Below are positions 26,198-40,729 of a DNA stretch of 64,000 nucleotides, piece after piece; the stretch's first letter is position 1; each line of letters starts with the position of its first letter. The notes under the pieces were generated by a model. The model searched no databases and was not told the DNA's origin. It saw only the letters and a program-made list of their open reading frames with translations. Source of the DNA: Henriciella sp. (GTDB lineage: Bacteria; Pseudomonadota; Alphaproteobacteria; Caulobacterales; Hyphomonadaceae). The stretch covers positions 3,563,516 through 3,627,515 of the forward strand of contig OZ245793.1 in assembly GCA_965228095.1 (NCBI GenBank), read 5' to 3'. The translations under genes and the position numbers were made by a program.

Positions 26198-26621
26198 AGC
26201 TCCCAACTCTTTGAAGGCGGCGATAGAGCGAGCGGCCCGGCCGTTGGGCGGGCTCTCCAACGCTTCACTTGCGATCGGTCGAGATCGATACACGATCCCG
26301 CACGCGGCCAATCCAAACCGCTCTGAAATGTTGCGCCTGGATGATGCGATCAAGTTGGATCAGGCCTGCTTCGATGCCGGCGGCGGTACGCCGATCCTGG
26401 ATCACTATGAGGGGGCCATTGAACATTTCGAGGGTCCGCGACTGAGCTGGTTCGATCATGCGGCCAACACTGTTCGCGAGAGCGCTGAACTGGCGGCAGA
26501 AATCATGGATGCGCTGAAGGATGGGAAAATCTCCAAGTCCGAAAAGCGCGAGATCCAAAAGGCCATCCATGACTCCCAACAGGTTCTCAGCGCTCTAGCC
26601 GCCGATCTGGAGGCGCAGTGA
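26184..26621 (+). CDS. CII-like phage regulatory protein
   Basis: Position after cro; ANPN, ESAELAAEIMDALKDGKISKSE pattern. Confidence 0.6.
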   Translation: MTTRKAPNSLKAAIERAARPLGGLSNASLAIGRDRYTIPHAANPNRSEMLRLDDAIKLDQACFDAGGGTPILDHYEGAIEHFEGPRLSWFDHAANTVRESAELAAEIMDALKDGKISKSEKREIQKAIHDSQQVLSALAADLEAQ

Positions 26622-26872
26622 TGTCGGGATCTGGGACATTCTGCAGCGATTGCGCGTGGCCTTACGAATGCGCCCGCGAAAATGGTTGCCGGCGTCGGGA
26701 TCAGGGCAAGATCCGCGCTCGTCAGTATCGCGAGCGGCCCTTCAAGCAGATTGAGTTCTCGATGAGAGGCGCAACGGCGCCTTCCGTCGACGAGGCAATC
26801 AACGAAATGCCCGCGTCAGCATTCGATGCCGTACGCCAGAGCGCCGAAGCCATGTCGCGAGGTAAGGCATGA
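26618..26872 (+). CDS. Small Cys-rich protein
   Basis: CSDC.W...C....C; overlap-coupled. Confidence 0.5.
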   Translation: MMSGSGTFCSDCAWPYECARENGCRRRDQGKIRARQYRERPFKQIEFSMRGATAPSVDEAINEMPASAFDAVRQSAEAMSRGKA

Positions 26873-28226: not shown

Positions 28227-29078
28227 ATGGCGGATACGGAACGCGAACCATCTGGTGACGAAAGCTCTCTACGGCCGATCCTAGCGATAGAGGCGAAGGG
28301 GCTGAGGCCAGCGAACTTGTCTCAAATGGAAATGCCTGACCTTCGGTGGCTGTCGCTGGATGTCCTCGTCATCAACGACCAATATCAGCGATCGCTGTCG
28401 AGCAGCTCTCTCAGATCAATCCGGCGCATCGTTCAGAACTTCGATTGGGCTCGCCTTAAGGCGCTGAACGTCACTCCGACCCAGGACGGTTTTTACGAGG
28501 TGGTCGATGGTCAGCATACGGCGATTGCGGCCGCCACTCATGGCTACATCGATGAGTTACCCTGCCTGATATCTGCAACTCGCGATCTCGCGGAGCGTGC
28601 CGGTGACTTTGTGGGCCTGAACAAAGACCGCGTCGCCATTCACCCGCTTCAGCTGTATCGCGCGGAACTAGCGGCTGGGGACGAATTGGCACTCGAGGTT
28701 GAGCAAGGAGTGAAATCGGCTGGTGGGCGCATCATCCCGAGCACAACTGGAATAAGACTTCGGCCTGGCGACTCCTGCGCCATTCAGGCGCTCAAGAAAC
28801 TGGCCAATACAGGCGGGCCAGCTTACGTCAAACGAATTGTCGGCCTCGCTGTCAGCGCTGATCTCGCGCCGCTGACAGCTAACATGATCGCGGCACTGGC
28901 TGAGCTTGCTTGGGAAGATGAGTTCTCGCAGGTGTCCGACGAAGTGATCGTCGATACGCTGCGGGTCTATGGCGCTAATAAACTCGTTTCCCGAGCTAAA
29001 GAGCTGAAGTCGGACACTCCGGGACTGCCGCTGAAGCGCGCCATAGCGGTTGTGATTGCGAGGCTCGCCCGTGTCTGA
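28227..29078 (+). CDS. ParB/Srx-like N-terminal domain protein (DUF6551-like)
   Basis: LVINDQYQR, FDW, YEVVDGQHTAIAA. Confidence 0.7.
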   Translation: MADTEREPSGDESSLRPILAIEAKGLRPANLSQMEMPDLRWLSLDVLVINDQYQRSLSSSSLRSIRRIVQNFDWARLKALNVTPTQDGFYEVVDGQHTAIAAATHGYIDELPCLISATRDLAERAGDFVGLNKDRVAIHPLQLYRAELAAGDELALEVEQGVKSAGGRIIPSTTGIRLRPGDSCAIQALKKLANTGGPAYVKRIVGLAVSADLAPLTANMIAALAELAWEDEFSQVSDEVIVDTLRVYGANKLVSRAKELKSDTPGLPLKRAIAVVIARLARV

Positions 29079-29406
29079 TCTGTTTTCCGCCGGCAGGCCT
29101 TCAGCCGTTCCTCACGCCCGGGACAAGCTCAAATCCGCGCTCAAGTTTGGTGAAGTTGCGAGCGACCTTGGGTTGGCAGGATCGTCGCGTCGCGGTTGGG
29201 ACTGCCCGAGTTGTGGTGCGGAGTTCGCCGTTCGGGAAACTGAAAACCACCGTGGCGGACGCTGCAAATCATGCGGCGAAGGGTTCGATATCATCAACCT
29301 CGTTCGCGAAACTGAGGATCTCGGATTTGAGGCAGCGCTGAAGCGGTTGTCTTCAATTCTCGATGAAAAGTCCAACCCCAAAAAAGGCATGCGGAGACTG
29401 TTTTGA
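29071..29406 (+). CDS. CHC2-like zinc finger protein (primase Zn domain-like)
   Basis: CPSC...CKSCGEGFDIINLV....LGFEAALK.L. Confidence 0.65.
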   Translation: MSDLFSAGRPSAVPHARDKLKSALKFGEVASDLGLAGSSRRGWDCPSCGAEFAVRETENHRGGRCKSCGEGFDIINLVRETEDLGFEAALKRLSSILDEKSNPKKGMRRLF

Positions 29407-34961: not shown

Positions 34962-35714
34962 ATGTCAGGCGCTCCCGACGGCTGGCGCTCCGGGAAGGAC
35001 ACCGAAAAGTATTTCGCCGACCAAGGCATCGAAGTTCACCTCTCAACCATCACGCGCCAGCGCAAAAAATATCCTGAGCTATTCCAGAAAATCGGCCGCA
35101 CGCTGTTCATTGATGCAGAAGCGCTGATCAAAAAGTACCGTGATGACTATCGCGGCGCGATTCACGCTGGTGAGACCAGCAATAAGCGGCCTTCGCGACT
35201 GACTGCGAAGCCCGCGGTACCGGATTCCGTTCGAGCAGCGGCGCCAAAACCGAAGGCGAAGCCTGACACGCCTGACGATGCAGCGGCCGCCCAGCCCGAG
35301 CCGGAAGCGGATCGAACAGTTGTCCCGTTGGATCCAACCCGCCGCAAAGCCCACTACGAGGCGATGCGGCTCGAACGCAACGAGTATGAGGCTCAGGGCT
35401 TGCTGATCCCGGCCACCAGCGCCCATGCCGCGATTGCATACGCCATTGCGGAGGGACAAGGGCAGCATTTGCGCGCCATCGGACCCGCGGCTGAGCGCAT
35501 TGCCGCCATGTTCGCGTCTGAAGAACGCTCGGCAGAGGTCAAAGCGATCTTGGATGACGTTTTTCGGGGCGGATGGAACGGTTTTGCCGCCGCTGCCAGC
35601 CGCGAGATAACGGATTCCAACCCTGAAGCTCTCGATCGCTTTAAGCAGCTGGAGGAATTCGCACATCAGCTGATGTCAGGAGACGATCATGCTCCTGAGG
35701 CCCAGGCTGGATGA
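34962..35714 (+). CDS. Terminase small subunit (Nu1-like)
   Basis: N-terminal HTH-like region, coiled-coil RLERNEYE..GLLIP; directly before large subunit. Confidence 0.7.
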   Translation: MSGAPDGWRSGKDTEKYFADQGIEVHLSTITRQRKKYPELFQKIGRTLFIDAEALIKKYRDDYRGAIHAGETSNKRPSRLTAKPAVPDSVRAAAPKPKAKPDTPDDAAAAQPEPEADRTVVPLDPTRRKAHYEAMRLERNEYEAQGLLIPATSAHAAIAYAIAEGQGQHLRAIGPAAERIAAMFASEERSAEVKAILDDVFRGGWNGFAAAASREITDSNPEALDRFKQLEEFAHQLMSGDDHAPEAQAG

Positions 35715-37888
35715 CGCCGGAGGAGCTACGGAAAACCTTCACTGGCCTCGCATCAGCGTTCGCAGTCGTTGGCGGCGCGATTGCGGAGGAAGCGCCGGTA
35801 GAAGAACCACTCCTGGTTCACGAATGGGCGGCGAAGTATCGCTTCGTTAGCGCTGAATCTGGATCCCCGAAGCCCGGGCAATGGTCGAATGACCTTTTGC
35901 CCTATCTGAAGGTGCCGATGGATCGCATGGGCCCGGAAGATCCTGTGCAAACGGTGACAATCCGAGGATCCGCTCAAACCGGAAAGTCAGAATGCGCTCT
36001 GAATGCAGGCCTATCGCGTGTCGATCAGTCGCCGTGTTCAATGTTGTATTTGCTTCCGTCGACTGACGAGGCGAAAAAATACAACAAGGTCAAATTTGAC
36101 GCGACCGTGCAGGCCTCGCCGCAAATCACGCGGAAGATCGCGAGCCAGACCGGGCGAACTTCCGAAAAGTCGACTGGATCCTTCAAGCGGTTCCCTGGTG
36201 GTTTCGCGATTATCGACTCCGCCGGCACCTCGAAGCCGCTGCAAATGGTCTCGATTGGCTTCATTGTGGCCGAAGAAGCGACTGAGTACGATGACGACGT
36301 CGACAATCGCGGTCACCCGATTGACCAGGCCCGTAAGCGCGGCACGTTTTTTGGACCTGAATTCAAACTGGTCATTCCGTCCACGCCTGGAAAGAAGGCG
36401 CTGAAGGGAGAGGCCGGCGGCTGCCGCGTTACCGCTGAATTTGAAGCAGGCGATCAGGCTCAATATGTGGTGCCATGTCCACATTGCGGCGATTTCAGCG
36501 CGCTAAAGTTTGAAAATATGGTCGGTCCGACCCCTGAAGATCCGGACCAAACTGTTGGGTTCTACTGCAAGGCATCCGGGCCCGAACAGGAGAACCAGGG
36601 CTGCGGCGCGCTCGCTGAGAGTTACCAGCGCCATGACATGATCCAACAGGGCCGATGGGTTCCGTATTTCCCGAGCGATCGGGAAGACAATCCGCAGCCA
36701 CCCGAGATCATTCCAGCCGATGAGATCGATCGATGGGCGTTCCGTCGTGAGGGGCGCCGATGGGTGAGCCCAAGAAACTGCGAGGGCCGGCCGGCGAGTT
36801 TCCAGATCTGGCAGGCCATGAACCCGCAAATTGCCTGGAACGTGATCTGGCGCGAATGGCGAGAGGTTGTTGAGGGGCGTTTTGAAGCCAAGGTGTTCTT
36901 TCAGCAAACGCTTGGCTTGCCTTTCGACGGAATTGTTGACCGTCCCGAGGTAGCAGCGTTGCTCGAGGCCTCTGGTCGTGTATGGGAAGAAGGTACAGTG
37001 CCGCCATTCTGCGCGGTGCTGACCATGGCCGTCGACGTCCAGGTGAACCGCCTAGAATGGGCGGTTTACGCCTGGGGCCGCGGGGGAGTCGGGTTCAGGG
37101 TGGCCAAAGGCATCCTGCCCGGCGACCCAACCAAGCTGCAGGTCTGGAAAGACCTGGATGCTCAACGGAAACAAACCTGGGCTGGGCCGGCTTTCAAAGC
37201 AGCTGCGCCGTCTCGTTGTTTCGTCGACTCCGGTAATTGGACGCAGGAAGTCTACGCGTACTGCCGTGGTCGCATGGCCGAAGGCGTGTTTGCGATTTTC
37301 GGGGCAAAAGGGCGAAATGCTCACGAAGCGCCCGCGGTCACGCAGTCGACGCCGAAGAAGGTCAAGATCAATAAGCGGACCGTGTCTAAAATCGTTCCTC
37401 TCCAAGTCGGTGGTCACACTTTGAAAGGCAGGTTTTACGGCGGAATGGGCGATGGGCTGCTGGCCGAAAAAGGCAAGCCCCTGCCTTCGCGAGCCATCCT
37501 GTTTCCGGCCGATTTGACTGAGGAAGAGGCGAAGCAACTCACCGCTGAGAAACTCAGCTTTAGCGATCCGAAAAAATCGTACGGCGAGTGGGTGAAGATC
37601 AGCGGGCAGCCGAACGAAGCGCTGGACCTTGGCGTCTACAATTTGGCGGCCGCGTGCTCGCTTCAAATCGACACCTGGGATGAAAAGCGCTGGGATGATG
37701 TTTACGCATCTGTGTTGCCAGACGAAGATCCGACACTGGCTGATGCCGGCGGCCTTGAGAGGCTTTGGAACGAAATCGCGGCACCCGCTGCCGCAGAAGA
37801 TGACGCCAAGCCTGAAGGGTTGAGCGATGAAGACAAACGCCGGCTCGAGGAACTCGGTCGCAAACATGGACATGGAGGGACGAGCTGA
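35711..37888 (+). CDS. Terminase large subunit (lambda GpA family)
   Basis: Walker A GSAQTGKSE, AEEATEY, STPG, YVVPCPHCG, VDVQ.NRLE, VDSG, NEALDL. Confidence 0.95.
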   Translation: MTPEELRKTFTGLASAFAVVGGAIAEEAPVEEPLLVHEWAAKYRFVSAESGSPKPGQWSNDLLPYLKVPMDRMGPEDPVQTVTIRGSAQTGKSECALNAGLSRVDQSPCSMLYLLPSTDEAKKYNKVKFDATVQASPQITRKIASQTGRTSEKSTGSFKRFPGGFAIIDSAGTSKPLQMVSIGFIVAEEATEYDDDVDNRGHPIDQARKRGTFFGPEFKLVIPSTPGKKALKGEAGGCRVTAEFEAGDQAQYVVPCPHCGDFSALKFENMVGPTPEDPDQTVGFYCKASGPEQENQGCGALAESYQRHDMIQQGRWVPYFPSDREDNPQPPEIIPADEIDRWAFRREGRRWVSPRNCEGRPASFQIWQAMNPQIAWNVIWREWREVVEGRFEAKVFFQQTLGLPFDGIVDRPEVAALLEASGRVWEEGTVPPFCAVLTMAVDVQVNRLEWAVYAWGRGGVGFRVAKGILPGDPTKLQVWKDLDAQRKQTWAGPAFKAAAPSRCFVDSGNWTQEVYAYCRGRMAEGVFAIFGAKGRNAHEAPAVTQSTPKKVKINKRTVSKIVPLQVGGHTLKGRFYGGMGDGLLAEKGKPLPSRAILFPADLTEEEAKQLTAEKLSFSDPKKSYGEWVKISGQPNEALDLGVYNLAAACSLQIDTWDEKRWDDVYASVLPDEDPTLADAGGLERLWNEIAAPAAAEDDAKPEGLSDEDKRRLEELGRKHGHGGTS

Positions 37889-38121
37889 TGGCTAGATCTT
37901 GCACCGAAATCGAGGCTGACATCTCTGCTCTGAAAGCGCGATTGACCGCTATGTCGACTGGAAAGGTGCTGGAAGAGACGGGATATGCCGGTAGCAAGGC
38001 TCGCTTCCATATCGCATCGCCTGACGAAATTCGGCGTCAGATCCTCGAACTGGAACAAGAGGCGCGCGATTGCGGTTGCCCCAATGCTCCGCGGGGCGGA
38101 GGGATCCGCGTCGGATTATAA
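37888..38121 (+). CDS. Head-tail joining protein gpW-like
   Basis: 77 aa directly after terminase; LKARL.AM.TGK...E..Y.G....F...S..EIRR.I.ELE. Confidence 0.75.
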   Translation: MARSCTEIEADISALKARLTAMSTGKVLEETGYAGSKARFHIASPDEIRRQILELEQEARDCGCPNAPRGGGIRVGL

Positions 38122-38123
38122 GC

Positions 38124-38139
38124 CGAACGGCGTTCGGTT
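38124..38139 (+). repeat. 16-bp motif CGAACGGCGTTCGGTT, copy 4
   Basis: Identical to the other copies; 22-bp identity with 15901-15922 in reverse orientation. Confidence 0.85.
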
Positions 38140-38144
38140 TTAGA

Positions 38145-39100
38145 GATCGCATGTGAATCGCTTGTAGGGGACTGCAGGCCATCCGGTGACGACTGAGGGA
38201 ATTACCAACATGCGAATTGAGTGGCGGCGTGGAAAGTAGACACGCTGCAATCCCAAAAAGTCTGTGACCATGCCTCGGCTGACTTGCGGGATAAGAAAGA
38301 GACGCCGAGGCTGGCGAGCCACCCGTGTGCCAGGAGGTGGAAATTGGTCCCTAAAATAGGGACTTGACCAGGGAAGAGACCATCGCCGGAGTAACGCCCG
38401 GCCCACTCAACATTTTCAGTTTGCCAGCGCTTACTCTACTCGCACTGGCCGGGGCTGGTTCGTACATGCAGGCGGGCCAGCCCCATTCAAAATACCCGAG
38501 AGGGGGTCAGAGTTAGCTCGCAAGGCGCTCTGCACTTGATCCGCGAGATAGCCCGGTTGGGACGGCGCCAGATCAAGTTGAGGAGACCGGGTGACCGGGA
38601 AACCAAAACGAACGTGAGGCCGATCCGGCAACTGTCTCTTGCGCTGAGGCAGGTCGGTCACGCCGTGCTGTTGCCCCCGTTAAAAACGGGGCTCGCCCGC
38701 CAAGCAGATGCTGGCAGCGCAGGGTGAGCCCCAACTTTTTCAAATCTGCCATAGGGCCATAATAGCCTGAAAGCGGAGGTGATGGCGTCCCGGACGGGGT
38801 TTTCTAAGTAATTTTCCCTCGTCTCCCCCAGTCTTTGACTTGCGTGTGACCGTCATCGCCGCGCCCAAGCCCGGTTTCTCGCTGACCTTATCGGGTCAGG
38901 CATTACGTCTCGGCTTGGGCGTACTTTTTTCAATCGATCTGCCTCGCGCGCCATCGCCAGTTTGGCGACGCGATGAGCGATCGCGGACAGGCGGGTCGCC
39001 TGAACTTCCGGCCTGTCCGTCGAATTTCGGATCGCTCGAGTTCCTCCCGAGCGTCCCTGCGTCCCGGCTCCCGATTTCGCGAGCCGGGACGGCTTTTTCT
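38145..39100 (+). ncRNA. Candidate large structured noncoding RNA(s) between gpW and portal
   Basis: ~1 kb with no credible ORF; more than 12 helices of 6-11 bp, GNRA tetraloops, tRNA-like domain; boundaries approximate. Confidence 0.65.
38862..38930 (+). terminator. Terminator-like stem with U-tract inside the gpW-portal insert
   Basis: GCGCCCAAGCC/GGCTTGGGCGT stem then ACTTTTTT. Confidence 0.45.
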
Positions 39101-39101
39101 T
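39061..39101 (+). terminator. Terminator-like hairpin just upstream of portal RBS
   Basis: Perfect 10-bp GTCCCGGCTC/GAGCCGGGAC then GGCTTTTTCTT. Confidence 0.55.
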
Positions 39102-39115
39102 GTCTTGGAGCCCCC

Positions 39116-40729
39116 ATGAACCCGTCTCGTCAAAACGCGCTCAAACGCGTTCACCGTCGCAATGCGAACAGCTTACCGGTACCGACACGCTCTGCGTCAG
39201 TCTCTGAGGCGGCGACGCGTGGTGGCCCAAGTCTGATTGGCTGGACGCCGCCGCTGACGCCGCCGGATCAGGAGAATCGAACATTAGGGCGCGACCTCGC
39301 GGTATCGCGTGCTCGCGATTTGACGGCGAATGAGCCCCTGGCGCAGGCCGCTAATGATCGCCGCATCGATATGGCGTTCGGCATGCGCGGGCTTCGTTTT
39401 TCGGCGCTGCCGGACGGTGCGGCCTTGGGCTTGGACCCCGATCAAACTGCCGAGCTCGCTGATGAGATCGAGCGGGTTTTCAACGACTGGTGTGAGGATG
39501 CACTCTGGCGGTGCGATTGGGAGCAAGACGAAAATTGGGGTGGCCTGTGCAACCTGATCGCCCGACATTATTTCCGCGACAATGAAGCTTTCGTCGTTCT
39601 GCGTTGGGACGAAGTGCCGGCATATGGTTTTCCGTTTCGTACAAGTTTGCACGTGATCGACCCGGATCGCGTCAGCAATCCAGATAACGCGCCCGATACG
39701 CCAACGCTCCGCTCGGGCGTTGAGTCGAATGGCCGACATGTTGTTCGCTACCACATCCGGAACGCCCACCCTCAAGACTGGACGTCCGGTGGCACCGGCG
39801 ACGCGATGAAATGGACGGCTGTTCCCAAACAAAATGAATATGGCCGACCCGTCGTCCTGCACTTGCGTCGAAAAGAGCGAGCGGACCAGCGGCGCGGTTG
39901 GGGCAGCCTGATGGCCACGCTGAAAAAGTTCAAAGATCTGTCTCGATACAGCGATGCTGAGATTCAGTCGGCTGTCGTGCGAGCTGTGATGGCTATGGTG
40001 ATCTATACGGATCGCTCCACGACCGGCATCGAGGATGCATTGAGCGTTGACGATATCGTCAAGTTTCAAAACGCGTCAGATGCCTATTACGGCGCCAAGG
40101 GCCCGCGGCTCGCCGACGGCACGCGGATCCAAAAGCTGTTTCCGACTGAGAAAGTCGAAATGCTCACGTCCAACGCTGAGGGTGGCGACTTCGAGGCTTT
40201 TGCGGGTGTGTTCTCGCGGCACATCGCGAGTGCGTTGGGTCTCTCGTACGAACAACTGACTATGGACTGGACGAAAACCAACTATTCGAGCGCGCGCGCC
40301 GCGCTCGTCGAGGTTTGGCGATCGGTTGAAAGTTTCATCGATTTGTTTGTTTCGAAAGTGGCGCGGCCCGTTCTGCTTTGCGTCATTGATGACGCAGAGG
40401 ATTCTGGCGAGCTGAAGGTTCCGCCGGCACTACCAGACCTGTTTGCGAAACCGCGCGCCTGGCTTGATGGTATTTGGCTTGGTTCTGCTCGCGGTTGGGT
40501 TGACCCAACCAAAGAACCGATGGGTGCCGGCATCGAGATGGAAATCGGCGCCTCCAGCTTGCAAGACGTCACGGCCAAGCAGGGTCGCGATTGGCAAAAA
40601 GTCACGATGCAGCGCGCCCGTGAAGCCAAGTTCTTCGAGAAACTCAACGTCACCCCGCCTAAGCCGATGGCTGAGGTCGCCGCGCTTATCGAGAATAAGC
40701 CAGAGCCCGTTCAAGAGGAAAATGCCTGA
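39116..40729 (+). CDS. Portal protein (lambda family)
   Basis: ARDL..N, DGE-like NEAFVVL, IDPDRVSNP, RG...L, DW...NYSSARA, WVDP.KE; GGAG RBS before ATG 39116. Confidence 0.95.
   Translation: MNPSRQNALKRVHRRNANSLPVPTRSASVSEAATRGGPSLIGWTPPLTPPDQENRTLGRDLAVSRARDLTANEPLAQAANDRRIDMAFGMRGLRFSALPDGAALGLDPDQTAELADEIERVFNDWCEDALWRCDWEQDENWGGLCNLIARHYFRDNEAFVVLRWDEVPAYGFPFRTSLHVIDPDRVSNPDNAPDTPTLRSGVESNGRHVVRYHIRNAHPQDWTSGGTGDAMKWTAVPKQNEYGRPVVLHLRRKERADQRRGWGSLMATLKKFKDLSRYSDAEIQSAVVRAVMAMVIYTDRSTTGIEDALSVDDIVKFQNASDAYYGAKGPRLADGTRIQKLFPTEKVEMLTSNAEGGDFEAFAGVFSRHIASALGLSYEQLTMDWTKTNYSSARAALVEVWRSVESFIDLFVSKVARPVLLCVIDDAEDSGELKVPPALPDLFAKPRAWLDGIWLGSARGWVDPTKEPMGAGIEMEIGASSLQDVTAKQGRDWQKVTMQRAREAKFFEKLNVTPPKPMAEVAALIENKPEPVQEENA

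What the first reader, a model, noticed from the sequence alone, without database searches (positions are those of the whole stretch)
38145..39100. ~1-kb helix-dense noncoding insert between gpW and portal: candidate large ornate RNA
Seen: 994 bp separate the gpW stop (38121) from the portal ATG (39116), with no credible ORF. It has many stems: TTGAGTGG/CCACTCAA, GCCTCGGC/GCCGAGGC, GTCCCT/AGGGAC, GGGGCTGG/CCAGCCCC, CAGAG/CTCTG, ACTTGATC/GATCAAGT, GTGACCG/CGGTCAC, CCCCGT/ACGGGG, GCTCGCCC/GGGTGAGC, GCGCCCAAGCC/GGCTTGGGCGT, GGACAGGC/GCCTGTCC and GTCCCGGCTC/GAGCCGGGAC. Several are nested multi-way junctions, with GNRA loops (GAGA 38498, GAAA 38599) and A-rich linkers. Established: in lambda-like phages A-W-B are contiguous, and large phage ncRNAs such as GOLLD and ROOL exist. 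Inference: a large structured RNA co-expressed with packaging genes, either a known ornate class or a new one, possibly acting in head assembly, packaging or defence decoying.
Basis: partly seen in the sequence, partly recalled or inferred. Interest (0 to 1): 0.85.

Follow-up and report, generated by a model that had tools for sequence, protein, structure and literature searches.

The report
New folded RNA before phage portal
The 1-kb gap between the gpW-position gene and the portal gene of this marine Hyphomonadaceae prophage encodes no protein; it holds a chain of folded RNA modules whose conserved core is a roughly 250-nt RNA family absent from Rfam, with function still unknown.

Summary
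There are 994 nt between the gpW-position ORF (stop 38121) and the portal ATG (39116), with no conserved ORF. The + strand folds far better than shuffles (z -8.25; - strand -3.3).

The reading as one 1-kb ornate RNA is only partly supported. The gap is a mosaic of modules with separate histories. The core, which I call R1 (38490-38744), has a 12-nt conserved tail, a multi-helix junction (P1-P5) and a long 3' hairpin/terminator. In nine members, 96% of pair cells are canonical and 37 of 51 core pairs show compensatory changes; slid controls give 32-46% paired.

Rfam 15 gives no hit, so it is not GOLLD, ROOL, an intron or a known riboswitch. R1 also lies in an early-region gap and behind tail genes of two other prophages. 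It is missing from the sister prophage in the same genome. It was found only in Hyphomonadaceae.

My best reading is a self-contained non-coding cassette (an RNA moron) that acts as a folded RNA. A cis-acting switch on read-through into the portal gene is the main rival.

This scan had already flagged the same family in another genome (e1-3283253).

The parts
37888..38121 (+). 77-aa ORF at the gpW position; upstream border of the gap
   Evidence: ORF list. No Pfam hit and only a marginal PHROG hit of unknown function (E 0.004). Homologs at 46-50% identity sit at the same position in relatives.
38122..38141 (+). T_W: intrinsic-terminator hairpin plus U-run directly after the gpW-position ORF
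   Evidence: Read from sequence. The same hairpin, with the near-invariant sequence CCGAACGSCGTTCGG, is in most relatives with this end on the contig, with small variants in L042 and G005.
38148..38214 (+). D0: closed domain (CGCAUGUG/AACAUGCG) with an inner hairpin capped by GGGA
   Evidence: MFE fold. L037 keeps the inner hairpin through several paired changes. This rests on two lineages only, read by eye.
38217..38410 (+). D1: large closed domain (UUGAGUGG/CCACUCAA) with a variable interior
   Evidence: MFE fold. The 5' and 3' flanks and the closing stem are shared with G005, where the stem extension changes compensatorily (UU/AA to GAU/AUC), but the interior is unrelated. L037 has another variant. 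ARAGORN calls no tRNA or tmRNA here.
38423..38449 (+). Ha: hairpin with conserved loop UACUCUACU
   Evidence: RNAalifold on three lineages gives one compensatory pair and an invariant loop.
38451..38484 (+). Hb: 12-bp hairpin with conserved loop CAUGCAGG
   Evidence: RNAalifold finds three compensatory pairs plus G-U changes. Hb is also present in L041 and L043.
38490..38501 (+). R1 5' tail, AAAUACCCGAGA; conserved and unpaired in the consensus
   Evidence: At least 8 of 9 members keep AAUACCC..GA. Homology with L040, L041, L042 and L046 starts at 38488-38490, and with G075 at 38484.
38502..38678 (+). R1 core, a multi-helix junction. P1 is 38502-06 with 38674-78. P2 is 38508-32 (loop CGCAA). 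P3 is 38534-78. P4 is 38582-604 (loop GUGA). P5 is 38611-72.
   Evidence: RNAalifold on 5 sequences: 69 pairs, 31 compensatory. CM alignments of 9 members: 95.9-96.3% of cells paired, 37/51 and 47/69 pairs changed on both sides, slid controls 32-46%. The single-sequence MFE reproduces the same helices.
38688..38741 (+). P6: long 3' hairpin of R1 with conserved internal loop (GCAGCGCAG) and, in this phage, a U-run, so it reads as an intrinsic terminator
   Evidence: 8 of 11 outer pairs and 4 of 6 inner pairs are compensatory. The U-run is absent in L041 and weak in L040.
38749..38774 (+). Motif C: CCAUAGG-N-CUGAAAGC, a conserved motif after R1
   Evidence: Present in win, L037, L040, L041, L042, G005, G000b and L043.
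38778..38860 (+). M4a: domain closed by a long-range helix (GGUGAUGGCG/CGUCAUCGCC)
   Evidence: MFE fold. An equivalent closing helix with a different sequence occurs in L040, G005, G000b and L043.
38861..38931 (+). T_M4a: long hairpin plus U-run; third intrinsic terminator
   Evidence: Terminator scan and MFE. L041 has the equivalent hairpin.
38952..39018 (+). Two further hairpins (38952-75 and 38985-39018)
   Evidence: MFE fold. They are partly alignable with L041.
39034..39052 (+). Hairpin that displays the anti-Shine-Dalgarno-like loop AGUUCCUCC
   Evidence: RNAfold on 14 relatives: 10 keep a hairpin with a (U)UCCUCC-type loop (ACCCUCC in L043) while the stems differ, for example GCUCG/CGAGC, GCCUCC/GGAGGC, CCCG/CGGG.
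39061..39101 (+). T_final: intrinsic terminator immediately before the portal RBS
   Evidence: RNAalifold on 9 relatives: 11 pairs, 7 compensatory. It is present even in the relatives with short 137-182-nt gaps (L044, L045).
39107..40729 (+). Portal RBS (GGAG) and portal gene; downstream border of the gap
   Evidence: Pfam PF05136 lambda-family portal, E 4.6e-80. Start position from the alignment with relatives.

Best explanation
The gap is a sense-strand, non-coding chain of structured RNA modules, not one indivisible 1-kb RNA.

Its conserved heart, R1 (38490-38744), consists of:
- a 12-nt conserved tail;
- a multi-helix junction of about 177 nt (P1-P5) with a CGCAA and a GUGA loop and conserved junction and internal-loop bases;
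- a long 3' hairpin that in this phage is also an intrinsic terminator.

R1 is a new RNA family, seen so far only in prophages of marine Hyphomonadaceae. It behaves as a self-contained cassette. It sits in the gpW-portal gap of a set of related phages, in an early-region gap of a second prophage type, and behind tail genes of a third. It is absent from the sister prophage in the same chromosome.

I read it as a non-coding moron. It would be transcribed in sense with the phage operon (or from a promoter I cannot recognise) and ended or 3'-protected by its own hairpin. It would act through its compact fold by binding a partner, protein or small molecule, rather than through a coding frame or simple antisense pairing.

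The surrounding modules belong to the portal leader: the Ha/Hb hairpins, motif C with its domain, three more terminators, and a UUCCUCC-loop hairpin before the portal RBS. They most likely insulate and tune read-through and translation of the portal gene.

Shown: the RNA structure, its novelty relative to Rfam, its modularity and its distribution. Inferred: transcription, release as a discrete RNA, and the binding mode.
For: Structure:
- RNAalifold on 5 sequences gives 69 pairs, 31 compensatory.
- In 9 members, 96% of cells are paired; 47/69 (whole unit) and 37/51 (core) pairs change on both sides. 0 of 500 shuffles reach this, and slid controls give 32-46% paired.
- G-U pairs fit the + strand only (the conserved U-G pairs), and the + strand z-score far exceeds that of the - strand.

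Non-coding: no codon-position bias, and similarity appears in all six frames.

Novel: no Rfam 15 match, and no blastn match among 50,697 phage records.

Cassette behaviour:
- Homology to L040, L041, L042 and L046 starts at 38488-38490 (G075 at 38484). With L040 it ends at 38738, while both flanks are unalignable and the portal proteins are 86% identical.
- Copies occur in the G105 early region (63 bits), in G111 after a P2-gpD-like tail gene (36 bits) and in G075 before a methyltransferase (148 bits).
- The sister prophage and G005 carry only a short variant, and L044 and L045 have none.
- R1 is single-copy in the genome.
- Other relatives hold protein morons (a D12 methyltransferase) at the same site, so the site accepts cargo.

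No reverse transcriptase or transposase-type partner: the only RT lies 1.3 Mb away, and no protein family is specific to R1-positive phages.
Against:
- No sigma-70-like promoter was found anywhere in 37800-39300, so an independent transcription unit is unproven.
- R1 alone is not thermodynamically exceptional (z -1.45).
- Module order (Hb, then R1 or its short variant, then motif C, then the closed domain, then the UUCCUCC hairpin, then the terminator) is kept across lineages. This would also fit one long functional leader.
- R1 is always co-oriented with, and upstream of, a gene. In G111 it ends 12 nt before an RBS, as a cis-regulator would.
- The family has only about nine distinct members, and the CM alignments are fitted to the model.
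Confidence: 0.45

Rival explanations
1. R1 is a cis-acting switch or attenuator, riboswitch-like or protein-binding. Folding of the junction (P1) decides whether the adjacent hairpin terminates transcription or, in G111, whether the RBS is free. It would thereby set read-through from the terminase genes into the portal and head genes.
For: - The core has riboswitch-like architecture: a multi-helix junction closed by P1, with conserved junction bases.
- P6 follows P1 after a 9-nt A-rich linker.
- The 3' strand of P1 (CCCC) can instead pair with the first Gs of P6 in win, L040 and L042. The 5' tail CCC can pair with the P1 G-run (CCC-GAGA-GGG) in most members.
- R1 is always sense and upstream of a gene. 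In G111 its 3' end lies 12 nt from an RBS.
- No promoter of its own was detected.
Against: - Downstream genes are unrelated (portal, methyltransferase, small unknown ORFs), which is unlike metabolite riboswitches.
- The alternative pairing is not kept in L041 or L046. L041 lacks a U-run after P6 and L040 has a weak one.
- In the window the next gene lies 370 nt and two more terminators away.
- Relatives without R1 keep T_W and T_final and evidently still express the portal gene.
Confidence: 0.3
2. The whole stretch of about 950 nt (38142-39101) is one large ornate RNA that works as a single particle, in the manner of GOLLD or ROOL, perhaps in head assembly or packaging.
For: - The whole gap folds with z -8.25, and the G005 gap with z -4.5.
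- The 3' flank is helix-dense in L040 as well, at z -5.45.
- Module order is conserved across lineages.
- Several domains beyond R1 show compensatory changes.
Against: - There are four intrinsic terminators inside the stretch.
- Modules are exchanged or lost independently. Phages with 97%-identical portals differ completely in 38236-38405; L040 shares only R1; L046 has a 460-nt gap; others have 137-206 nt.
- R1 occurs alone elsewhere.
- There is no Rfam match to GOLLD or ROOL.
Confidence: 0.1
3. The gap is a structured spacer and terminator array. The hairpins only terminate stray transcription in the lysogen, block Rho loading on a long untranslated stretch, or stabilise mRNA ends. They would have no specific RNA function beyond that.
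For: - There are four terminator-like hairpins.
- T_W and T_final are conserved even in minimal gaps.
- Flanking modules change sequence freely while staying helix-dense.
Against: - This does not explain the conserved unpaired bases, the multi-helix junction, the sharp module borders, or the 85% nucleotide identity of R1 where the flanks are unalignable.
- It does not explain R1 copies in unrelated phage positions.
Confidence: 0.1
4. The gap is a hidden or decayed protein gene, or a DNA-level element such as a packaging site, an origin or a repeat element.
For: A stop-free + frame of 110 codons crosses R1. The portal frame is open upstream to 38840.
Against: - That frame has no start codon in its first 47 codons.
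- Substitutions show no codon-position bias.
- Neighbouring morons have left no remnants in the gap (tblastn).
- G-U pairs and the strand asymmetry point to RNA rather than DNA.
- R1 is single-copy in the genome.
- The open portal frame coincides with a pyrimidine-rich + strand.
Confidence: 0.03

Closest known systems
GOLLD and ROOL RNAs (large ornate RNAs often carried by prophages)
   Same: They are non-coding, highly structured, multi-domain and prophage-borne, with function unknown. This gap also has a total structured length near 1 kb.
   Different: There is no sequence or structure match (Rfam). The conserved unit here is only about 190-250 nt. The gap is interrupted by four terminators and is modular. 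The host clade is Alphaproteobacteria (Hyphomonadaceae), and the site lies between the gpW-position gene and the portal gene rather than next to tRNA genes.
Phage morons (promoter-gene-terminator cassettes between late genes, as in HK97/HK022) and prophage-encoded small RNAs
   Same: It is accessory cargo between two conserved late genes, present or absent among close relatives. It has its own 3' terminator, and the same site holds protein morons (a methyltransferase) in relatives.
   Different: The cargo is an RNA with a complex junction fold, not a protein gene or a short Hfq-type sRNA. No promoter was recognised.
Riboswitches and other structured 5' leaders with terminator expression platforms
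   Same: A multi-helix junction is closed by P1 and followed closely by a terminator hairpin. Alternative pairings are possible. The element is sense-oriented and upstream of genes.
   Different: There is no match to any known class. Downstream genes are heterogeneous. The switch pairings are not conserved in all members, and the U-run is missing in one member.
Processive antitermination RNAs (HK022 put, Bacillus EAR)
   Same: These are cis-encoded phage or operon-internal structured RNAs placed upstream of terminators. Ha and Hb are two adjacent hairpins separated by one nucleotide, as in put.
   Different: No homology was tested or shown. R1 is much larger than put. Relatives lacking R1 still carry the flanking terminators. 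This is a resemblance from memory only.
phi29 pRNA (packaging RNA bound to the portal)
   Same: It is a phage-encoded structured RNA of comparable size, and here it is encoded next to the terminase and portal genes.
   Different: There is no Rfam match. R1 also occurs away from packaging genes and is dispensable in sister phages. Nothing links it to the packaging motor.

Membership tests
GOLLD (Rfam) / ROOL (Rfam) | Match to the family covariance model (sequence plus secondary structure) | tested here: not met
   cmscan of the whole window at gathering thresholds gave 0 hits. The gap at E<=10 gave only unrelated sub-threshold hits. Four other members at E<=1 gave none.
Group I / group II introns, known ribozymes | Match to Rfam intron or ribozyme models; for group II, an adjacent reverse transcriptase | tested here: not met
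   No Rfam hit. The only RVT_1 gene in the genome lies at 2.29 Mb, far from the window.
Known riboswitch classes | Match to an Rfam aptamer model | tested here: not met
   No Rfam hit at any threshold used.
Riboswitch-like cis switch (generic) | Conserved mutually exclusive pairing between the aptamer P1 and the terminator or RBS | tested here: inconclusive
   An alternative CCCC(G)/(C)GGGG pairing is possible in win, L040 and L042 but not in L041 or L046. The U-run is absent in L041.
tRNA / tmRNA-like element (D1, 38217-38410) | Cloverleaf with canonical T-loop and acceptor end, as detected by ARAGORN | tested here: not met
   ARAGORN found 0 genes in the window. With relaxed scores and introns allowed, it gave only inconsistent calls that do not coincide with D1.
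Phage moron | Accessory cassette between conserved late genes, variably present among relatives | tested here: met
   Gap length ranges from 137 to about 2100 nt among relatives. R1 is present, absent or replaced, and methyltransferase cargo sits at the same site.
Phage moron | Own promoter and own terminator | tested here: inconclusive
   A terminator is present at 38688-38741. No sigma-70-like promoter was found. There are no transcript data.
Retron / DGR / bridge-RNA / omega-RNA type guide RNAs | Adjacent reverse transcriptase, recombinase or TnpB/IscB gene | tested here: not met
   The flanking genes are the terminase, the gpW-position ORF, the portal and the S49 protease. There is no RT in the window. 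No protein family is specific to R1-positive phages.
phi29-type pRNA | Match to the Rfam pRNA model; essential association with the packaging genes | tested here: not met
   No Rfam hit. R1 copies lie in an early region and behind tail genes in other prophages, and R1 is absent from sister phages.

The most novel reading that the evidence does not exclude
R1, possibly together with its flanking domains, is a new class of phage RNA device. Either it is a sensor that couples an intracellular signal or a phage or host protein to read-through from the terminase genes into the head-gene block, or it is a folded RNA particle that counters a host defence or takes part in virion assembly. In either case it would be an RNA-only accessory function that moves between phages as a cassette.
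Probability: 0.15. Interest if true: 0.85.

Novelty: new variant of a known kind. Interest (0 to 1): 0.6.

Why it matters
Structured non-coding RNAs carried by phages are few and mostly unexplained; GOLLD and ROOL are the usual examples. This is a compact RNA family, well supported by covariation, that no catalogue holds. It sits in temperate phages of marine Alphaproteobacteria and behaves as mobile RNA-only cargo.

One chromosome carries two sister prophages, one with the RNA and one with only a short variant. That gives a built-in comparison for genetics.

If R1 proves to be a sensor or an anti-defence RNA, it would add a new type of phage accessory function. If it is a cis attenuator, it would show how the terminase-to-head-gene expression ratio is set in this phage group.

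Tried and rejected
- Known RNA families: rejected. Rfam was searched at gathering and E-value thresholds on the window and on four other members.
- Similar DNA in 50,697 phage records: none.
- Coding potential: rejected.
- Remnants of the neighbouring morons (methyltransferase, ORF133, ORF71) in the gap: none.
- tRNA or tmRNA reading of 38217-38410: not supported.
- Retron, DGR or group II reading: no RT nearby.
- Protein partner specific to R1-positive phages: none. The test was all-against-all ORF BLAST over six phage regions.
- Wider distribution:
  - R1/R2 covariance-model searches covered 150 family genomes (twice), 150 order genomes and 150 class genomes. All confident hits were in the family Hyphomonadaceae.
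  - Hits at 15-19 bits lacked the hallmark motifs and were set aside.
  - Four pattern scans of IMG/VR gave one true locus, L026, a relative (97%-identical portal) of this phage.
  - 27 of 29 metagenome pattern hits were not members.
  - The genome-contig scan with the portal gave only one distant locus.
- Repeats of the 5' tail motif, or a complement to it, in the window: none beyond chance.
MAFFT misaligned the two most divergent members.
- Literature: two full-text searches found no description of this RNA.
Full report
**1. What is there**

The window lies in a complete 3.7-Mb genome (G000:C1:3563516-3627515). The genus is probably Henriciella, family Hyphomonadaceae.

The local gene order is as follows:
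- gpA-type large terminase, 35711-37888;
- a 77-aa ORF at the gpW position, 37888-38121;
- the gap;
- lambda-family portal (PF05136), ATG at 39116;
- S49 protease.

The 77-aa ORF has no Pfam hit and only a marginal PHROG hit of unknown function, so 'gpW' is a positional label.

**2. Is it more than chance, and is it non-coding?**

- Folding. The + strand folds to -447 kcal/mol against -388 +/- 7 for dinucleotide shuffles (z -8.25). The - strand gives z -3.3. By parts, 38142-38489 and 38745-39115 each give z -4.4, and 38490-38744 gives z -1.45.
- ORFs. ORFs in the gap are short. A 110-codon stop-free + frame crosses the middle but has no start codon in its first 47 codons.
- Substitutions. Changes against four homologs are evenly spread over codon positions. 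Translated identity (74%) is below nucleotide identity (85%).
- Decayed genes. tblastn with the morons found in relatives detects nothing in the gap.
- Conclusion. The gap is non-coding.

**3. Relatives**

Few relatives were found among the species-representative genomes:
- a second, tandem sister prophage in the same chromosome (L003);
- G005;
- G075.

Portal homologs from the large protein collection led to more loci:
- L037/L038/L039 (97% portal identity);
- L040 (86%);
- L041 (82%);
- L042 (74%);
- L043 (70%);
- L046 (64%);
- L044, L045, L047 and L048.

The gpW-portal gap varies widely:
- 137-206 nt in L044, L045 and L048;
- 455-660 nt in the sister prophage and G005;
- 754-907 nt in L041, L040 and L037;
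- 994 nt here;
- 1.4-2.1 kb where a D12 DNA methyltransferase and small ORFs are inserted (L043, G075).

The site is therefore a cargo hot spot.

**4. The gap is a mosaic**

blastn of the window gap against the others breaks at sharp borders:
- L037 is 97.7% identical from 38406 onward, only 74% identical in 38123-38235, and unalignable in between.
- L040 shares only 38488-38738 (85%).
- L041 shares 38490-39110 (72%).
- L042 shares 38489-38790.
- L046 shares 38488-38627.
- G075 shares 38484-38534.
- G005 and the sister prophage share 38385/38427-38486.

From this and the folds I distinguish the following modules (coordinates):
- T_W (38122-38141);
- D0 (38148-38214);
- D1 (38217-38410);
- hairpins Ha and Hb (38423-38484);
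- R1 (38490-38744);
- motif C (38749-38774);
- M4a, a domain closed by a long-range helix (38778-38860);
- terminator T_M4a (38861-38931);
- two further hairpins;
- a hairpin with the loop AGUUCCUCC (39034-39052);
- T_final (39061-39101);
- the portal RBS.

**5. R1 is a real and new structured RNA**

*Structure from five sequences.* A five-sequence alignment (A2) gives an RNAalifold structure of 69 pairs, 31 of them with compensatory changes:
- P1 closes a junction that holds P2, P3, P4 and P5.
- P2 is 6 bp, a UA bulge, 3 bp and a CGCAA loop.
- P4 carries a GUGA loop.
- P5 is composite, with a conserved GUGAR/CGUGCAG internal loop.
- After an A-rich linker comes a long hairpin, P6, with a conserved internal loop.

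The single-sequence MFE reproduces these helices.

*Members found with covariance models.* Models R1 (256 positions) and R2 (core, 192 positions) recover all the relatives above. They also recover G075 (148 bits with R2), G105 (63 bits), G111 (36 bits) and a mini-version in L048 (25 bits).

*Pair counts on nine members*:

| Measure | Value |
|---|---|
| Cells paired | 95.9-96.3% |
| Pairs changed on both sides, whole unit | 47 of 69 |
| Pairs changed on both sides, core | 37 of 51 |
| Shuffles reaching these values | 0 of 500 |
| Cells paired with partners slid by 1-3 columns | 32-46% |

Two caveats apply. The alignment is fitted to the model, and the sequences are related.

*Strand.* Conserved U-G pairs, which would be A-C on the other strand, assign the structure to the + strand.

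*Conserved unpaired bases*: AAUACCC..GA in the tail, the CGCAA loop, GUGA, and GC.GUG.A on the 3' side of P5.

*Novelty.* Rfam 15 holds nothing like it. The phage record collection has no similar DNA. Two literature searches found nothing.

**6. Distribution and context**

- Copy number. R1 is single-copy in the genome.
- Taxonomic range. Confident matches occurred only within the family: G075, G105 and G111 among 150 genomes sampled. None was found in 150 order-level genomes outside the family or in 150 class-level genomes. These are samples, so the RNA was not found rather than shown absent. IMG/VR holds one locus, a relative (97%-identical portal) of this phage.
- G105. The RNA lies in a phage early region, between homologs of window ORFs 26573-26869 and 29056-29403.
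- G111. It lies after a P2-gpD-like tail gene and a 215-aa ORF, and ends 12 nt before the RBS of a 102-aa ORF.
- G075. It precedes the methyltransferase leader.
- Orientation. It is always in sense with the operon.
- Partners. No protein family is shared by R1-positive phages and absent from R1-negative ones. The only reverse transcriptase is far away.

**7. The other modules**

- Ha and Hb are adjacent hairpins, one nucleotide apart, with invariant loops (UACUCUACU and CAUGCAGG) and compensatory stems. Hb precedes R1, or its short variant, in five lineages.
- The sister prophage, G005 and L043 carry a short variant in place of R1, followed by the same motif C and a closed domain.
- T_final is conserved with 7 of 11 compensatory pairs in nine relatives, including the minimal gaps.
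- Ten relatives keep a hairpin with a UUCCUCC-type loop, anti-Shine-Dalgarno-like, just before T_final, with differing stems.
- T_W is almost invariant in sequence.
- The 3' flank is helix-dense in L040 too (z -5.45), and the whole G005 gap gives z -4.5. The 5' flank of L040 is not helix-dense (z -1.28).
- D1 was read by another note of this scan as tRNA-shaped. Its closing stem and flanks are shared with G005, but ARAGORN does not support a tRNA or tmRNA.

**8. How it most likely works**

*Shown.* A compact, conserved RNA fold exists on the sense strand and is inherited as a unit with sharp borders. It is optional among sister phages and portable between phage sites. It has its own 3' hairpin, which in this phage is a terminator.

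*Inferred.* It is made as part of the operon transcript, or from a promoter I cannot see (the scan found none). It acts as a folded RNA that binds something.

*The main rival.* This is a cis switch. P1, the tail (CCC-GAGA-GGG) and the base of P6 offer competing pairings in several members. However, these are not conserved in L041 or L046, L041 lacks the U-run, and the downstream genes are unrelated.

*Weaker readings.*
- The single 1-kb ornate RNA is weakened by four internal terminators and by independent module turnover.
- A pure spacer and terminator array does not explain the conserved junction bases or the portability of R1.

**9. Relation to earlier notes of this scan**

- e1-3283253 flagged the 907-nt gap of another genome, evidently an L037-type phage that shares 102 of 119 words with R1. 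Its follow-up called it a new structured RNA.
- My tests agree with that note. They add the modular anatomy, the definition of the core, the copies at other phage positions, the limits of distribution and the negative partner search.
- This is an AI note, not independent evidence.

**10. Verdict**

- Novelty: a new RNA family within the known category of prophage-borne structured non-coding RNAs.
- Interest is moderate to high for RNA biologists. It is limited by the narrow distribution and the unknown function.

Noticed in passing
window 1-~15900 and G000:C1:3552120-3555181 (L003): The chromosome carries two related prophages in tandem. The sister prophage has the same terminase/gpW-position/portal order but a 455-nt gap with only a short variant in place of R1. 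This is a natural with/without pair in one cell.
   Followed up: partly
L043:2344-3174; L036:339-1310 (- strand): Relatives carry a D12-class N6-adenine DNA methyltransferase, with a shared structured leader, inserted in the same gpW-portal gap. G075 additionally has 133-aa and 71-aa ORFs of unknown function there.
   Followed up: partly
window 38122-38141 and equivalents in relatives: The terminator hairpin after the gpW-position ORF keeps nearly the same sequence (CCGAACGSCGTTCGG) across phages whose gpW-position proteins are only 46-50% identical. This suggests a constraint beyond hairpin formation.
   Followed up: no
window 39034-39052 and equivalents: A hairpin presenting an anti-Shine-Dalgarno-like loop (UUCCUCC) sits about 10 nt before the last terminator and about 55 nt before the portal RBS in ten relatives, with covarying stems. 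It may act as a translational brake on the portal gene.
   Followed up: partly
window 37888-38121: The ORF called gpW has no Pfam match and only a marginal PHROG match of unknown function, so its identity rests on position and size only.
   Followed up: yes
window 38650-39250: The + strand is strongly pyrimidine-rich here (AT skew down to -0.38). The portal reading frame stays open upstream to a TTG at 38840, and similar upstream-open frames occur in L003 and L042. This is probably a composition effect, but an N-terminally extended portal was not excluded.
   Followed up: no
L037:2594-2800 (its variant of D1): The loop motif CAUGCAGGCG of hairpin Hb recurs inside the L037 variant of domain D1, so this short motif may be a recurring functional element.
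   Followed up: no
L102 (G071:C1:1772982-1773132, - strand): A weak R2 hit (16.6 bits) in another genome of the same genus has a P2-like hairpin with a CGCAA loop and a CGUGA motif. It could be a remote relative or chance.
   Followed up: no
L045:142-278, L044:1307-1488: In the shortest gaps, the R1 tail motif (AGAAUACCCG / AAGAUGCCCC) forms the 5' strand of the UUCCUCC-loop hairpin. This looks as if the R1-to-M4 block had been inserted into, or deleted from, that hairpin.
   Followed up: no
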